Below, in pieces: positions 121 through 6,899 of a stretch of DNA of 64,000 bases; the stretch's first letter is position 1; the number at the start of each line of letters is the position of its first letter. Position numbers and translations under genes: made by a program. Below the pieces are notes generated by a model that did not search any database, had not been told where the DNA came from, and saw only the letters and a program-made list of their open reading frames with translations. Origin of the DNA: a virus (taxonomy: Duplodnaviria; Caudoviricetes); the IMG/VR virus record IMGVR_UViG_3300010167_001484, positions 96,001-160,000 of that record; one strand, given 5' to 3'.

Positions 121-318
121 ATGAAGAAATTAGTTAAGTCTGATATTGATGAAGAATTAGATCAGAATATAACAGATTTAGTAGATGAATTCAATACTCA
201 AGTTATGGACCCTGATTCTGAATTACGTAAATTGTTATCTGGTTATGTTGATGATGCTATATTAGAAGAAGCATTGATAGCAGCTATGCAAACATTTAAT
301 GAAATTATATTAGGATAG
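121..318 (+). CDS. Small acidic protein with MKKLVKS leader
   Basis: ORF with AGGAG SD; leader variant of the MKRLIRA family. Confidence 0.75.
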   Translation: MKKLVKSDIDEELDQNITDLVDEFNTQVMDPDSELRKLLSGYVDDAILEEALIAAMQTFNEIILG

Positions 319-329
319 GGAGATAAATT

Positions 330-551
330 ATGAAGAAGATAATAAGATCTAATGTTAGGGAAGGGTCTAGAGATATAGTAACATCTGGTTTGAATGTATT
401 GGCTAGCAAGGCAGATGAAATAATACTTTGGGACAAATTACGTGAATTTGAAGAATTTTTATATGAAATAGAGCATGATGTCAATGTGAAGGATATTCAG
501 AAAGCTATTGATGTATTCATCAATGATTTTGATTGGACTATAGATAAGTAA
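330..551 (+). CDS. Small protein with MKKIIRS leader
   Basis: ORF, GGGAG SD, leader variant. Confidence 0.75.
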   Translation: MKKIIRSNVREGSRDIVTSGLNVLASKADEIILWDKLREFEEFLYEIEHDVNVKDIQKAIDVFINDFDWTIDK

Positions 552-572
552 TTCTAGATGGTTAGGTAAATT

Positions 573-935
573 ATGAAAATTCTTGCTCGTACTCGCGAAG
601 ATATACCTTTAGAAAACCAAGGTGGAAATTGTTTCAAAGTAGCATTTGAAACAATGCAGAAAGATCCTAAGAAGTATATACTTGTTCACGCAGTAGTAAC
701 TGGTCAAGGCCCTATAGAAGGTGTTAAATACAGTCATGCTTTCGTTATAGATGATAGTAGAGATATTGTAATTGATAATACACTCAAAGGATCTGAAAAA
801 GAATTTCCCGTTGGTTTGTATTACAGTATTGGTGAAATTGAGATTTCTAAAGAATACACTTATAGAGAAGCTCTTAAAGCTATTGTAAAATATGAACATT
901 GGGGTCCTTGGGATTCGGAGATAAGTAGATATTAA
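573..935 (+). CDS. Putative papain/transglutaminase-like fold protein (weak MKILART leader)
   Basis: GNCF...HAFVID...VID spacing suggests a Cys-His-Asp triad. Confidence 0.5.
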   Translation: MKILARTREDIPLENQGGNCFKVAFETMQKDPKKYILVHAVVTGQGPIEGVKYSHAFVIDDSRDIVIDNTLKGSEKEFPVGLYYSIGEIEISKEYTYREALKAIVKYEHWGPWDSEISRY

Positions 936-947
936 AGGACGGGAATT

Positions 948-1250
948 ATGAAAAGATTGATAAGGGCTAATAAAACTCCTGTGGGGGCTATTCTTAGTAA
1001 AGTTGCTAATACTGTTAATAATGAATTTAAAGGTACAAGTCTTCATGTATCTAGAAATGATGGTGGTACTACTTATTCTATAACTGTTGACAATTCAGAT
1101 GATCTTCATCTATTAGACGAAGCTGTAGATTTCATAAATAACAAGTATCCAGATCTTGAAGCATTTACACATAAAAACCGTATGGCTAAATATAATGACC
1201 CAAATACTCGTAGCGGTATGCCTACTAAAGGTGTTATGCGTTATAGATAG
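948..1250 (+). CDS. MKRLIRA-leader hypothetical protein
   Basis: Starts MKRLIRAN. Confidence 0.8.
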   Translation: MKRLIRANKTPVGAILSKVANTVNNEFKGTSLHVSRNDGGTTYSITVDNSDDLHLLDEAVDFINNKYPDLEAFTHKNRMAKYNDPNTRSGMPTKGVMRYR

Positions 1251-1307
1251 TAATCATGGAAGTTGTTGTGAAGATAATTTATAGTTTATAATGAGTTATC
1301 ATATTAG

Positions 1308-1384
1308 TACATCAACTCCCACAAGAGTTGTATCAAATATATAAGAAAATTGAAGGTAAAATTTAATGAAGAGGTTGATAAGGG
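1308..1384 (+). repeat. Cassette-junction repeat copy A (77 bp, identical to 2898-2974)
   Basis: tacatcaactcccacaagagttgtatcaaatatataagaaaattgaaggtaaaatttaATGaagaggttgataaggg. Confidence 0.95.
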
Positions 1385-2193
1385 CGACTGATTATAAACT
1401 GGAAAAACACGAAAGAACTAAATATAAAAGTAAATTAAGGTCATCTACAAGTAAATTATTAAAAGAGCAATTCGGTACGAGTGTAACTATTAATAGTTTC
1501 AAGTATGATTTCTATGGTGAAGATACTATATGTATAACTTTTGAGTCCGATTCATTTGAGGGCCGTGTAGTTCTTGCTATTCTTGGTGATTATAATGGTT
1601 ATAATGCAATTGAAATAAATGGTAATTATTTTGGATCTTGGGGAAATAACAGTCAATTCTCAGAAAATGAGTTTGTGTCAAGTCAAACATTTAAGAATGA
1701 TTTTGTACCTTTATTTGAAGAATACTTTCAATCTATAGGGTTAGGTAAACCAGATAAGCCGGCTGAATTGCGAGTTAATCCTAAGCAAAGTCCTATGATG
1801 GTAGCAGTTGTTAAGGATCTATTGAATGATCTTAGAAGTCAAGTGAATCTACCTTTTAGTGATGCAGAAATAGTTGGATCTATTGGTAGAGAGATAAATC
1901 ATAGTGATTTATCTTTAGATTGGATTGATTTGAGTTATTCGGATGTATGTGGATTATTTTTAGGTTTTAGAGTAACTTATCATTATGTTAATGAGTATGC
2001 TTTCAAATTGTATGATATAGAAAGTGGTAGTTCATGTTGGGAATCATTTGGACGTCGTAGATTAAGTGTACTTCAACGAAAGAAGGATAGTGGTAATTGG
2101 TTTGAGACTGAAAGTATACATGTTAATAAAGAGAGCTATCCTGAGATATTTGAATTACCTGCATATAAGAAATTATATGATGAATATTATTGA
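1366..2193 (+). CDS. MKRLIRA-leader hypothetical protein (275 aa)
   Basis: Starts MKRLIRAT inside repeat A. Confidence 0.85.
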   Translation: MKRLIRATDYKLEKHERTKYKSKLRSSTSKLLKEQFGTSVTINSFKYDFYGEDTICITFESDSFEGRVVLAILGDYNGYNAIEINGNYFGSWGNNSQFSENEFVSSQTFKNDFVPLFEEYFQSIGLGKPDKPAELRVNPKQSPMMVAVVKDLLNDLRSQVNLPFSDAEIVGSIGREINHSDLSLDWIDLSYSDVCGLFLGFRVTYHYVNEYAFKLYDIESGSSCWESFGRRRLSVLQRKKDSGNWFETESIHVNKESYPEIFELPAYKKLYDEYY

Positions 2194-2223
2194 AGAAGTT
2201 TAAGATAGAAAGGTGTAAACATT

Positions 2224-5033: not shown

Positions 5034-5260
5034 AAAGATTGATAAGGGCTCAAAGTGAACTCAAGAAGACTGTTAGTGTTAGTTTTCAAGTAGATATTCC
5101 TATAGATATGGAAAATAATTCTTATAGAGATATAGTTAAAGCTAGAGTAGGTCTTAGTAATGGTGTTAATGTAGTTGTTCAAGATGCATTTATTCCTGAA
5201 ATTGCTAATCAAGTAGAGACTGATGAGTTATTAGAATCATTACAGAATAAGGGTTCATAA
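5030..5260 (+). CDS. MKRLIRA-leader hypothetical protein
   Basis: Starts MKRLIRAQ. Confidence 0.8.
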   Translation: MKRLIRAQSELKKTVSVSFQVDIPIDMENNSYRDIVKARVGLSNGVNVVVQDAFIPEIANQVETDELLESLQNKGS

Positions 5261-5460
5261 TGTTAGAAATAATCAAAGAATCTATACAACAGTTATCAAA
5301 TATAACCTTTAATGAATTTTATATGAAGTATGTATTTGATATACAAGATCAGAATATGGAAGCCGAATTTAATCAGATAACAACTGCGGCTACTGCATAT
5401 AGGACTGATGTCAAATTTGTAGATAAATTATTGAATAATGCAATGAAAGGGCTAGTGTAA
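5260..5460 (+). CDS. Hypothetical protein (no leader)
   Basis: ORF coupled by TAATG. Confidence 0.65.
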   Translation: MLEIIKESIQQLSNITFNEFYMKYVFDIQDQNMEAEFNQITTAATAYRTDVKFVDKLLNNAMKGLV

Positions 5461-5463
5461 ATT

Positions 5464-5664
5464 ATGAAGAAGCTGGTTAAAAGTAATTATAGTGGTCAAG
5501 ATATAATAGATCTAGAGAATCGTATCAAGAGTGCTGAAATCTATTTGGAAGATATAGTATCTGCATTTCATAGATTAATTGACGAAGGTAGAATGGTTGA
5601 GATTGATGATGCTTTAGATACAATTATTCCTTCGTTGATAGATGTATGGAAGAAACATTGTTAA
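5464..5664 (+). CDS. Small protein with MKKLVKS leader
   Basis: Same leader as ORF 121. Confidence 0.75.
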   Translation: MKKLVKSNYSGQDIIDLENRIKSAEIYLEDIVSAFHRLIDEGRMVEIDDALDTIIPSLIDVWKKHC

Positions 5665-5674
5665 AGGGGCTATC

Positions 5675-6064
5675 ATGAAAAGATTGATTAGATCTAATAC
5701 TGCAACACTTAGAAGTTTACCTACAAGTTATTTAGCAGATGCTATAAGAGATTTGTGGAATGGTCCTGAAGAGAGTATACCTACGTGTCAGAAAGAATAT
5801 ATTGAATATTTTAATAATAAGGGTATAGATATTTCTGATGAAGAACAATGGGATCGTGCATGGGATGAAGCATGTGGTCCTGAACCTGAAGAAGAGGTTC
5901 TAAAATTAGGTGGTAGAGAGTTTTATGATAGGCATGACGCTAGTGAATGGTTGATAGAGAAAACTCAAGAATATGGTAATACATATTTCTTTCCAGATAA
6001 TGATAGATATGTATTAAATCAACTTATCGAGAAATTCGGTAATACTTATTTTTGGAATAGATAA
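5675..6064 (+). CDS. MKRLIRS-leader protein
   Basis: ATG at 5675 after AGGGG SD gives MKRLIRSN. Confidence 0.8.
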   Translation: MKRLIRSNTATLRSLPTSYLADAIRDLWNGPEESIPTCQKEYIEYFNNKGIDISDEEQWDRAWDEACGPEPEEEVLKLGGREFYDRHDASEWLIEKTQEYGNTYFFPDNDRYVLNQLIEKFGNTYFWNR

Positions 6065-6075
6065 GGATTAAACAG

Positions 6076-6522
6076 ATGATAAGTGCTCAGATATTTAGAA
6101 ATTTATATGTTGATTTATATAAAGAATTGCGTAAATATCTCTGGGATATAGATGCTGTTACATTGATTGTGGATTTAGAAACTGAAACACATAAAGCATT
6201 TCCAGATGTGATTCAACTAAATTCTATATTGGGTAGACTTAAGAGACAAACTATAAGTACATCTCTTGAAGATGAGGAATTGTCAGATGCATTTGATAGT
6301 TTTGAAGAAGCTTTGAAAGATGTAGATGATTTTGTTACATTAATAAAATATCCCACGCCTACACCTTTAGATGTAGAGAAAACTGAAGATGAAGATGAGG
6401 TTTTGGAAGAAGCTATAGATGATAATCTTGAAGATGGATTTGAGGGAGATGTAGAAGAAGAATCGTCTGAAGAAACTGGTTTTGGGGAATTTGAGGAGGA
6501 GGTTGAAAATGAAAATCAGTAA
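6076..6522 (+). CDS. Hypothetical protein with very acidic C-terminal tail
   Basis: ORF; E/D-rich tail. Confidence 0.75.
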   Translation: MISAQIFRNLYVDLYKELRKYLWDIDAVTLIVDLETETHKAFPDVIQLNSILGRLKRQTISTSLEDEELSDAFDSFEEALKDVDDFVTLIKYPTPTPLDVEKTEDEDEVLEEAIDDNLEDGFEGDVEEESSEETGFGEFEEEVENENQ

Positions 6523-6709
6523 AAGTAGTATTAATGCAAATAAACGAGCATCTAATAATGTCAAAGCTACAACAAATAATAGAAGTGAAGCAGTGGAATA
6601 TATCCAATCTGCAATACATTCATTAGGTACAAATGCTAAAGATGATGTAGTTGCGAAAGAATCAATAGCAAATCTTAGTGTTATATTGTTCGATTTGAAG
6701 GGAAGTTAA
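6509..6709 (+). CDS. Hypothetical protein
   Basis: GGAGG SD before ATG 6509 (MKISKSSINAN). Confidence 0.65.
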   Translation: MKISKSSINANKRASNNVKATTNNRSEAVEYIQSAIHSLGTNAKDDVVAKESIANLSVILFDLKGS

Positions 6710-6713
6710 ATCT

Positions 6714-6899
6714 ATGAAGAAGGTTGTAAAATCAGCATATGATGAATCTAACGAAGGAATTAAACGGGAAATTGTAGATAAATTATCTGAAATTTATGAA
6801 ACTATAGCTAATAATCCAGATTTGTTAGATACACCTGATATATCTGAGAGTATTAATGAGTTGTCTAGTTTATTGTTTGAAATAACTGGTTTAGCATAG
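6714..6899 (+). CDS. Small protein with MKKVVKS leader
   Basis: Leader variant, acidic helical body. Confidence 0.75.
   Translation: MKKVVKSAYDESNEGIKREIVDKLSEIYETIANNPDLLDTPDISESINELSSLLFEITGLA

What the first reader, a model, noticed from the sequence alone, without database searches (positions are those of the whole stretch)
121..6899. Array of unrelated small proteins sharing a 7-residue N-terminal tag (MKRLIRA): candidate capsid-targeting/injected-protein system
Seen: at least 13 genes here start M-K-[RK]-[LVI]-[IV]-[RK]-[ASTE] (121, 330, 948, 1366, 2535, 2956, 3349, 3934, 4611, 5030, 5464, 5675, 6714). Similar starts recur far away at 32735, 33528, 33815 and more weakly at 573, 40214 and 55885. 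After residue 7 the bodies are mostly unrelated. The tag varies synonymously (aaa/aag, aga/agg, ttg/tta, ata/att) and conservatively (MKKLVKS, MKKVVKA) even where upstream DNA is unrelated, which argues for selection on the peptide. No hydrophobic h-region follows, so it is not a Sec signal. Established: T4 internal proteins carry a ~10-aa N-terminal capsid-targeting sequence removed by the prohead protease, the IPI locus is hypervariable, and IPI* blocks GmrSD. Inference: an analogous but much larger tag-plus-cargo system beside terL/portal, loading diverse (possibly anti-defence) proteins into the head, perhaps with cleavage after the Ala/Ser.
Basis: partly seen in the sequence, partly recalled or inferred. 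Interest (0 to 1): 0.88.

Follow-up and report, generated by a model that had tools for sequence, protein, structure and literature searches.

The report
Shared N-terminal tag on phage proteins
About forty otherwise unrelated small, acidic proteins of this 214-kb uncultured phage with a T4-type head begin with the same seven amino acids (MKRLIRA and close variants); this is most likely an address label that loads them into the virus head, as phage T4 does with its internal proteins, but loading has not been shown.

Summary
The window has 14 strict tags, 13 of them in 121-6899. The whole 214,046-bp genome has 38-41 of about 293 genes tagged, all on the coding strand.

Selection acts on the peptide. 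Information content has a period of three. Thirty-six of 38 tags are distinct 21-mers, and only the ribosome-binding site is shared upstream. The exception is six cassettes that also copy about 60 nt from the 3' end of gene 2224-2535.

Five relatives (TerL 53-65% identical) carry 7-24 tags each, with a lineage-specific form: MKRYIRS, MKRVIKS, MKLYIRA, MKKYIKS. The cargo sets are almost entirely different.

The head module is T4-type. The portal matches Pfam Portal_T4, the capsid protein matches Gp23, and the protease has the T4 gp21 fold joined to a coiled coil. One tagged protein in a relative is an ART-PolyVal ADP-ribosyltransferase, like the packaged T4 Alt.

My best reading, at about 0.5, is a T4-like capsid-targeting tag in an expanded and sequence-divergent form. 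Packaging, cleavage and anti-defence roles are untested. The tag lacks the Glu cut site of known gp21-type proteases.

This scan has noted the same tag elsewhere in this genome, and analogous tags in other T4-like or huge phages.

The parts
121..318 (+). Tagged gene, 65 aa, MKKLVKS, acidic
330..551 (+). Tagged gene, 73 aa, MKKIIRS
573..935 (+). Weak tag variant, 120 aa, MKILART
   Evidence: single-sequence fold unusable
948..1250 (+). Tagged gene, 100 aa, MKRLIRA
1304..1365 (+). Junction repeat: intergenic copy of the 3' end of gene 2224-2535, directly before a tagged start
   Evidence: family D1; 95% identical to the copy at 2894
1366..2193 (+). Tagged gene, 275 aa, MKRLIRA
   Evidence: no Pfam family
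2224..2535 (+). Untagged 103-aa anchor gene, conserved in relatives just upstream of the small-terminase region. Its 3' end is the source of the junction repeat, and its stop overlaps the next ATG (TAATG).
   Evidence: no Pfam or PHROG hit
2535..2888 (+). Tagged gene, 117 aa, MKRLIRA; member of the four-gene paralogue group
2894..2955 (+). Junction repeat copy
2956..3282 (+). Tagged gene, 108 aa, MKRLIRE; paralogue of 3934
3349..3909 (+). Tagged gene, 186 aa, MKRLIRA; partial junction repeat upstream (3305-3348)
3934..4536 (+). Tagged gene, 200 aa, MKRLIRT
4611..4910 (+). Tagged gene, 99 aa, MKRLIRA; junction repeat at 4567-4610
4923..5033 (+). 36-aa remnant ORF ending ...EFYQIYKKVRDKI: a decayed copy of the end of gene 2224-2535, placed before the next tagged start
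5030..5260 (+). Tagged gene, 76 aa, MKRLIRA
5464..5664 (+). Tagged gene, 66 aa, MKKLVKS
5675..6064 (+). Tagged gene, 129 aa, MKRLIRS (start chosen by its ribosome-binding site)
6714..6899 (+). Tagged gene, 61 aa, MKKVVKS, directly before the putative small-terminase gene
7749..9725 (+). Large terminase; no terminator lies between the array and this gene
11607..13109 (+). T4-type portal protein (Pfam Portal_T4, 58 bits)
32688..32698 (+). AACCTTTTATA: copy of a candidate late-promoter motif found about 40 nt upstream of many structural genes, here 47 nt before a tagged gene
32735..33478 (+). Tagged gene, 247 aa, MKRLIRA, DUF4116 repeats, inside the tail gene block
33528..33701 (+). Tagged gene, 57 aa, MKKVVKA
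33815..34507 (+). Tag variant, 230 aa, MKVLIRG

Best explanation
The seven residues M-K-[KR]-[L/V/I]-[I/V]-[RK]-[A/S] are a portable N-terminal address peptide. It works like the capsid-targeting sequence of T4 internal proteins. During head assembly it would bind tagged proteins to the prohead core, which here is a gp21-like protease fused to a coiled-coil scaffold. Dozens of small, mostly acidic accessory proteins would then be enclosed in the head and enter the host with the DNA.

The array at 121-6899 is a cargo-gene locus. It grows by tandem duplication and replacement of cassettes just downstream of gene 2224-2535.

Shown here: the tag exists, it is selected as a peptide, it is modular, it is conserved across the clade with a lineage-specific form, and the head module is T4-type. 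Inferred: binding to the core, packaging, ejection, any trimming of the tag (possibly at a hydrophobic-x-Ala/Ser site), and host-takeover or anti-defence roles for the cargo.
For: 1. Peptide-level selection. Information content is high at codon positions 1-2 and low at position 3, it starts at the ATG and ends at codon 7, and only the ribosome-binding site is shared upstream. Thirty-six of 38 tags are distinct 21-mers. Tags coding the same peptide differ by 3.2 synonymous bases on average. Leu is coded TTG versus CTA in the paralogues at G000 8058 and 8423.

2. Modularity. In the family of the G000 8058 protein, some members carry MK[RK][YLVFI][IV].. directly before the core, and others have unrelated N-termini or lie inside larger proteins. 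Homologous bodies occur with and without the tag across six genomes.

3. Clade-wide conservation with concerted variants. The forms are G000 MKRLIRA (about 40 genes), G001 MKRYIRS (20-24), G002 MKRVIKS (7), G003 (9), G004 MKLYIRA (7) and G005 MKKYIKS (13). These 100 tagged proteins fall into 92 BLAST components. Further contigs hold arrays of seven consecutive MKRYI[RK]S genes. A uniform form within each genome fits co-evolution with one recognising partner.

4. T4-type head. Portal_T4 and Gp23 match above their Pfam cut-offs. The protease matches PHROG 207 at 3.5e-20. Its model matches T4 gp21 (5JBL) at Z 10.4 with 131 aligned residues, and it is followed by a helix of about 200 residues.

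5. Cargo type. A tagged 143-aa protein of G001 is ART-PolyVal at E 1.8e-14. T4 Alt is a packaged ADP-ribosyltransferase with a 7-residue propeptide (PMC9026906). Tagged proteins are small and acidic, with median pI 4.5 against 5.4 for untagged proteins (p 5e-7).

6. Position in the genome. Two tagged genes flank the conserved gene just upstream of the protease and capsid genes. The window array runs without a terminator into the terminase and portal genes. Gene 32735 has the motif that precedes structural genes.

7. Abundant structural proteins (capsid protein, sheath, portal) lack the tag. This argues against a plain expression enhancer.

8. Precedent. T-even internal proteins are diverse and share only the targeting sequence (PMC3012670). 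Targeting in T4 depends chiefly on residues 4 and 7 (PMC9026906). Here residue 4 is the lineage-specific one.
Against: There are no virion proteomics or expression-timing data. Known gp21-type proteases (T4, phiKZ, SPN3US) cut after Glu (PMC9026906). The tag has no Glu, and an [ASG]-x-E site follows it in only 8/38 and 5/20 proteins, while [LI]-x-E is essentially absent.

The proposed hydrophobic-x-Ala-Ser site is a loose motif. Conserved copies lie at the capsid protein N-terminus, at the protease/scaffold boundary and at the protease N-terminus. They are too few for statistics: 2 per protein, against 0-1 in the control proteins.

The two largest tagged clusters lie downstream of the TTTCGTTATA promoter-like motif, which also precedes replication-type genes. 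They may therefore be made early. About 14% of all genes as head cargo is far more than in T4.
Confidence: 0.5

Rival explanations
1. The tag is a recognition code for some machine other than the prohead. One example is an N-terminal degradation signal read by a host or phage AAA+ protease, which would limit the lifetime of takeover proteins. Another is a docking peptide for a host factor.
For: Peptide-level selection and lineage-specific forms fit any single recognising partner, including a host one. The pattern basic, hydrophobic, hydrophobic, basic, small resembles the ClpX N-terminal motifs as I recall them from Flynn et al. 2003 (from memory, not tested). The largest clusters follow the promoter motif that is shared with replication genes.
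Against: No such partner was identified. This reading does not explain the link with a T4-type head module, the tagged genes inside the head operon, or the ART-PolyVal cargo that parallels packaged Alt.
Confidence: 0.15
2. The tag is a by-product of how genes are added. New ORFs would be placed behind a copied translation-start module, and the first codons would be kept because they give efficient initiation and early elongation. There would be no targeting function.
For: Six cassettes in the window share 40-88 nt that include the start region. The codons are purine-rich and A/T-rich, with fewer CTT and CGT codons than the genome average. Lys at position 2 is common throughout the genome.
Against: For the other 30 or so genes the upstream DNA is unrelated apart from the ribosome-binding site (30-nt identity 0.36 against 0.28 for random pairs). 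Synonymous sites vary freely. Conservative replacements use unrelated codons, such as Ser TCT/AGT and Arg AGA/CGT. The most abundant proteins do not use the tag. A genome-wide switch from L to Y or V at position 4 between relatives has no translational rationale.
Confidence: 0.12
3. All tagged genes are fast-diverging descendants of one ancestral gene, and the N-terminus is simply the slowest-evolving part.
For: Some neighbours are true paralogues: 2535, 2956, 3349 and 3934, and G000 8058 and 8423. Tandem duplication is evident.
Against: The bodies include unrelated folds and families: ART-PolyVal, BspA-type LRR, DUF4116, a zinc ribbon and the G000 8058 family. Lengths range from 57 to 427 aa. 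The same families exist without the tag.
Confidence: 0.05

Closest known systems
[quoted passage not shown] 1994 as cited there)
   Same: A short N-terminal peptide (10 aa in the internal proteins, 7 aa in Alt) on otherwise unrelated small proteins. The loci are hypervariable. The phage has a gp20/gp21/gp23-type head. An ADP-ribosyltransferase is among the tagged proteins of a relative. Residue 4 matters for targeting in T4 and is the lineage-specific residue here.
   Different: The sequence is different and strongly basic, with no Glu cut site. There are about 40 tagged genes per genome instead of 3-4. The protease is fused to a coiled-coil scaffold. Packaging has not been demonstrated.
Head-packaged ejection proteins of giant phages (phiKZ, SPN3US), processed by gp21-like proteases (PMC5694885, PMC7411985)
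   Same: Large phages with a diverged gp21 homologue and many internal head proteins.
   Different: In those phages cleavage follows [S/A/G]-x-E and the propeptides are long and dissimilar. No common 7-residue N-terminal tag is described for them.
Repeated promoter or start modules that flank mobile gene cassettes in T4-like phages (PeSLs; from memory, not checked here)
   Same: The six cassettes in the window share a DNA repeat across the gene start, and the locus looks like a site of cassette gain and duplication.
   Different: Most tags are not embedded in a DNA repeat, and conservation is at the peptide level.

Membership tests
T4-type capsid-targeting sequence / internal-protein system | The same short N-terminal peptide on otherwise unrelated proteins | tested here: met
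   38-41 genes fall into 39 BLAST clusters. The same body families occur with and without the tag.
T4-type capsid-targeting sequence / internal-protein system | Phage builds its head by the T4 route (gp20 portal, gp21 protease/core, gp23 capsid protein) | tested here: met
   Portal_T4 at 58 bits and Gp23 at 42 bits, both above their cut-offs. The protease model matches 5JBL at Z 10.4, rmsd 3.8, 131 aligned residues, and matches PHROG 207 at 3.5e-20.
T4-type capsid-targeting sequence / internal-protein system | Tag ends in the protease's cleavage motif ([L/I]-x-E in T4) | tested here: not met
   There is no Glu in the tag. [LI]-x-E just after the tag occurs in 1/38 and 0/20 proteins, and [ASG]-x-E in 8/38 and 5/20. 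An alternative hydrophobic-x-Ala/Ser site is only suggested.
T4-type capsid-targeting sequence / internal-protein system | Tag is sufficient for incorporation into proheads; tagged proteins are present in virions and ejected | not testable with these tools
   The phage is uncultured and no proteomic data were available.
T4-type capsid-targeting sequence / internal-protein system | Sequence relatedness of the tag to the T4 CTS | not tested
   The T4 CTS as I recall it starts M-K-T-Y, and variants here start M-K-R-Y or M-K-T-Y. Seven residues are too few for a homology test.
Peptidase S77 (T4 gp21) for the protease at G000 161393-162841 | Pfam family match above the gathering score | tested here: inconclusive
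   22.6 bits against a cut-off of 27. The fold match to 5JBL is clear.
Sec, lipoprotein or Tat signal peptide | Hydrophobic h-region after a basic n-region | tested here: not met
   The maximum 12-residue hydropathy within residues 5-35 is at most 1.43 in all 38 proteins.
Copied translation-initiation or promoter module (DNA-level repeat) | Conserved DNA extends upstream of the ATG and synonymous sites are conserved | tested here: not met
   This feature is met only for six cassettes. For the rest only the ribosome-binding site is shared and third codon positions vary.

The most novel reading that the evidence does not exclude
The tag is not a head address at all. It would instead be a phage-clade-specific N-terminal code read by a different machine, for example a degradation timer or a delivery or export factor. 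That code would govern the fate of about 14% of the phage's proteins and would co-evolve with its reader, giving L, Y or V at position 4 in different lineages.
Probability: 0.13. Interest if true: 0.85.

Novelty: new variant of a known kind. Interest (0 to 1): 0.62.

Why it matters
If the tag loads proteins into the head, this clade shows how far the T4 internal-protein principle can be pushed. Dozens of swappable proteins would be delivered with the DNA, before any phage gene is expressed. That is the moment when host defences act. The tag would then serve as a cheap computational marker for finding candidate injected effectors and anti-defence proteins in uncultured phages. It would also be a very short handle for packaging foreign proteins. 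Finally, a gp21-fold protease that does not cut after Glu would widen the known specificity of that family.

Tried and rejected
Searches that found nothing:
- Literature searches for the tag strings gave no paper.
- A word-index homologue search for the 121-aa tagged protein found only itself.
- tblastn of two tagged proteins against cultured phages found no match.
- The closest cultured phage by TerL, Bacillus phage vB_BceM-HSE3 (39% identity), has no tag.
- Exact-pattern scans of the virus and metagenome collections returned mostly chance single hits. A few real relatives were found: L043, L099, L142, L208 and L209.

Tests that gave no usable result:
- The complex prediction of protease-scaffold with the 78-aa tagged neighbour gave no answer, score 0.00. 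This is evidence neither for nor against binding.
- A PDB sequence search with the protease profile gave only coiled-coil hits.
- The single-sequence fold of the 120-aa protein at 573-932 was unusable, with pLDDT 41.
- PHROG searches of conserved neighbouring genes gave nothing informative.

Ideas rejected:
- The 529-aa gene after TerL is not a capsid-protein paralogue. The 'vertex protein' label of its counterpart in HSE3 was therefore not used.
- A sigma-70 promoter scan showed no enrichment, and TATAAATA-type late promoters were not supported.
- A Glu-type cleavage site after the tag was rejected as a general feature.

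
Full report
**The observation.** The window is G000:C1:96001-160000 of a 214,046-bp virus record with 33% G+C. 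Nearly all genes lie on the + strand: 151 of 155 ORFs of 150 aa or more. In 121-6899, thirteen ORFs start with M-K-[RK]-[LVI]-[IV]-[RK]-x exactly as listed, and a fourteenth is at 32735. Genome-wide, the strict pattern hits 31-32 ORF starts on the + strand and none on the - strand. With position 3 relaxed there are 38, and about 41 with looser forms, out of about 293 called genes. The same motif occurs internally only three times in the whole proteome, so chance cannot explain the N-terminal copies. The tagged genes form clusters at 8, 53-55, 96-103 (this finding), 128-130, 160-161, 180-190 and 203-208 kb.

**Peptide or DNA.** Information content across the 38 starts begins at the ATG and ends at codon 7. 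It is high at codon positions 1-2 and low at position 3. Upstream, only the ribosome-binding site stands out. Thirty-six of the 38 tags are distinct 21-mers. Tags that code the same peptide differ by 3.2 synonymous bases on average and by up to 6. Arg is coded by AGA, AGG, CGT and CGA, Ser by TCN and AGT, and Leu by TTR and CTR. Selection is therefore on the peptide. There is a mild excess of purine-rich codons.

Six cassettes in the window are an exception: 1366, 2535, 2956, 3349, 4611 and 5030. They share 40-88 nt that comprise the last 60 nt or so of gene 2224-2535, its stop codon overlapping the next ATG, and the tag. A 36-aa remnant of that gene's end lies at 4923-5033. In relatives, the homologue of gene 2224-2535 sits directly before three small genes and the terminase genes, with no array between them. 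The array is thus an insertion and duplication hotspot just after this gene.

**The bodies.** Once the first eight residues are removed, 41 tagged proteins form 39 BLAST clusters. Pfam and PHROGs recognise almost nothing. The exceptions are DUF4116 in gene 32735, an FmdB-like zinc ribbon, and a sub-threshold DarA_C-like stretch in a 378-aa protein outside the window. The adjacent genes 2535, 2956, 3349 and 3934 do share a diverged C-terminal domain, so 'unrelated' is not true of every pair. Tagged proteins are small (median 113 aa) and acidic, with median pI 4.5 against 5.4 for untagged proteins (p 5e-7). They lack a signal-peptide h-region.

**Relatives.** TerL relatives in IMG/VR are 51-65% identical. 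I read five of them in full. Each carries the tag in its own form: G001 (171 kb) has 20-24 genes with MKRYI[RK][SA], G002 has 7 with MKRVIK[SA], G003 has 9, G004 has 7 with MKLYI[RK]A, and G005 has 13 with MK[KR]YI[RKQ][SA]. All copies lie on the coding strand and there are none in the reversed-pattern control. Further contigs hold seven consecutive MKRYI[RK]S genes within 2.5 kb.

The 100 tagged proteins of the six genomes fall into 92 BLAST components, 68 of them singletons. Only 89 of the 293 G000 proteins have any G001 homologue. Where bodies are homologous, the tag can be present, degenerate or replaced. G001_83516 is tagged but G005_21913 is not. G004_128341 is tagged while its orthologues in the other five genomes are not. 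An exhaustive HMMER search with the G000 8058 protein gave the same picture. About 16 of the first 70 relatives carry MK[RK][YLVFI][IV].. directly before the conserved core. Others have unrelated N-termini or are parts of larger proteins.

The tag is therefore a portable module. It has been kept over a long divergence while the cargo turns over. Its form is uniform within a genome but differs between genomes. That pattern fits co-evolution with a single reader. It does not fit a generic translational optimum.

**The head module.** The portal (window 11607-13109) matches Pfam Portal_T4, and the 480-aa protein at G000 162868 matches Gp23, both above their cut-offs. The 482-aa protein just upstream matches PHROG 207 'head maturation protease' at 3.5e-20 and matches Peptidase_S77 weakly. 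Its AlphaFold model (pLDDT 65) has an N-terminal alpha/beta domain whose best PDB match is T4 gp21: 5JBL, Z 10.4, rmsd 3.8, 131 aligned residues. A helix of about 200 residues follows. This is a protease-scaffold fusion. The phage therefore assembles its head by the T4 route. That is the one system in which a short N-terminal targeting peptide on diverse proteins is experimentally established. In T4 the targeting sequence is 10 residues, targeting depends mainly on residues 4 and 7, and Alt has a 7-residue propeptide (PMC9026906). T-even internal proteins are diverse and share only the targeting sequence (PMC3012670).

Four further points fit this reading. A tagged 143-aa protein of G001 is ART-PolyVal at E 1.8e-14, a parallel to Alt. 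Two tagged genes flank the conserved 116-aa gene directly upstream of the protease, and G002 has a tagged gene at the same place. The window array runs into the terminase and portal genes with no terminator-like site between genes. T4 holds about 1000 internal protein molecules (PMC3012670), so 40 kinds at modest copy number is physically plausible.

**Trimming.** Known gp21-type enzymes cut after Glu (PMC9026906). Here the tag has no Glu, and a Glu-type site directly after it is present in only a quarter of the proteins or fewer. The first 82 residues of the capsid protein contain no Glu at all. Alignments of six relatives show several conserved sites:
- R-x-[PS]-[VI]-x-A-[SG] near capsid protein residue 20;
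- [IV]-[MT]-[GA]-A-T near capsid protein residue 68;
- [IV]-A-A-[SA] and [IV]-C-A-[SA] at the protease/scaffold boundary;
- K-[VI]-K-[SAG] at the protease N-terminus.

These resemble the tag's I-[RK]-[AS]-[SDN]. A changed specificity of hydrophobic-x-small is therefore possible. However, the motif is loose and the counts (2 per head protein against 0-1 in controls) carry no statistical weight. I treat trimming as an open hypothesis.

**Timing.** Two promoter-like motifs recur. AAATAATTTCGTTATAGTATAT has about 30 copies and is strongly biased to the coding strand. It precedes replication-type genes, the 180.6-kb tagged cluster, and the gene 951 nt before the window start. No other promoter candidate lies between that copy and the portal gene, so the array and the packaging genes appear to share it. 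The second motif, AACCTTATATA, occurs 27 times on the + strand and 7 on the - strand. It lies about 40 nt upstream of many structural genes and 47 nt upstream of tagged gene 32735. The timing evidence is thus mixed and does not decide the question.

**Rivals.** A reader other than the prohead, such as a degradation signal or a host factor, explains the peptide-level and lineage-specific features equally well. It does not explain the link to the T4-type head, the position of tagged genes in the head operon, or the Alt-like cargo. A copied start module or expression enhancer explains six cassettes but not the rest, and the abundant structural proteins do not use the tag. Common descent of all tagged genes is contradicted by the unrelated domains and by untagged homologues.

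**Verdict.** This is best filed as a new, expanded and sequence-divergent variant of the T4 capsid-targeting principle. Confidence is about 0.5, because no result here shows that the proteins are in the particle. The scan had already noted the same tag elsewhere in this genome (e1-5633345, e1-5633346), and another agent reached a similar conclusion. Analogous tags were noted in other T4-like or huge phages (for example e1-3862018). I treated those notes as leads and re-derived the points used here.

Noticed in passing
window 15877-26776 (G000 111877-122776): Ten paralogous genes of 194-240 aa share an N-terminus like M-x-K-E-L-E-L-K-T-x-D-D and a core YPIGSIYMSVN...LFGG.WE. One matches PHROG tail or baseplate families. 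Several are preceded by the AACC[TA]TATATA motif at about 40 nt. This looks like a diversified set of tail or receptor-binding proteins.
   Followed up: partly
whole genome; e.g. window 29379, 31224, 55799; G000 95049, 180559: The promoter-like motif AAATAATTTCGTTATAGTATAT has about 30 copies on the coding strand and 4 on the other strand. Most copies lie 35-90 nt upstream of gene starts.
   Followed up: partly
window 26812, 30524, 32688; G000 164421, 168599, 170474: A second motif, AACCTT[AT]TATA, lies about 40 nt upstream of structural genes (27 copies on the + strand, 7 on the - strand, allowing one mismatch). It is a candidate late promoter.
   Followed up: partly
relative G001 (L155-L162), coding-strand positions 111903, 134008, 134444, 135415, 148676, 159788, 160758: A second shared N-terminus, M-x-K-[FY]-T-x-x-P-K, sits on about seven proteins of the relative. 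It may be a second tag class. One of these proteins is homologous to the N-terminal domain of the tagged 378-aa G000 protein.
   Followed up: no
window 9980-11569: The 529-aa gene between TerL and the portal has a conserved N-terminus, N-x-L-x-A-G-D, in five of six relatives, and only weak ligase-like PHROG hits. It is not similar to the capsid protein. Its role is unknown.
   Followed up: partly
L007:4168-6636 (G000 183168-185639): An 823-aa protein with no family match lies inside the largest tagged cluster and contains an internal KRIIRAT. It may be a multi-domain cargo protein.
   Followed up: no
G000 61821 (L004): A 35-aa ORF, MKKLIRNTHIFGMSN..., is a truncated copy of the G000 8058 family, that is, a decayed tagged gene.
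   Followed up: no
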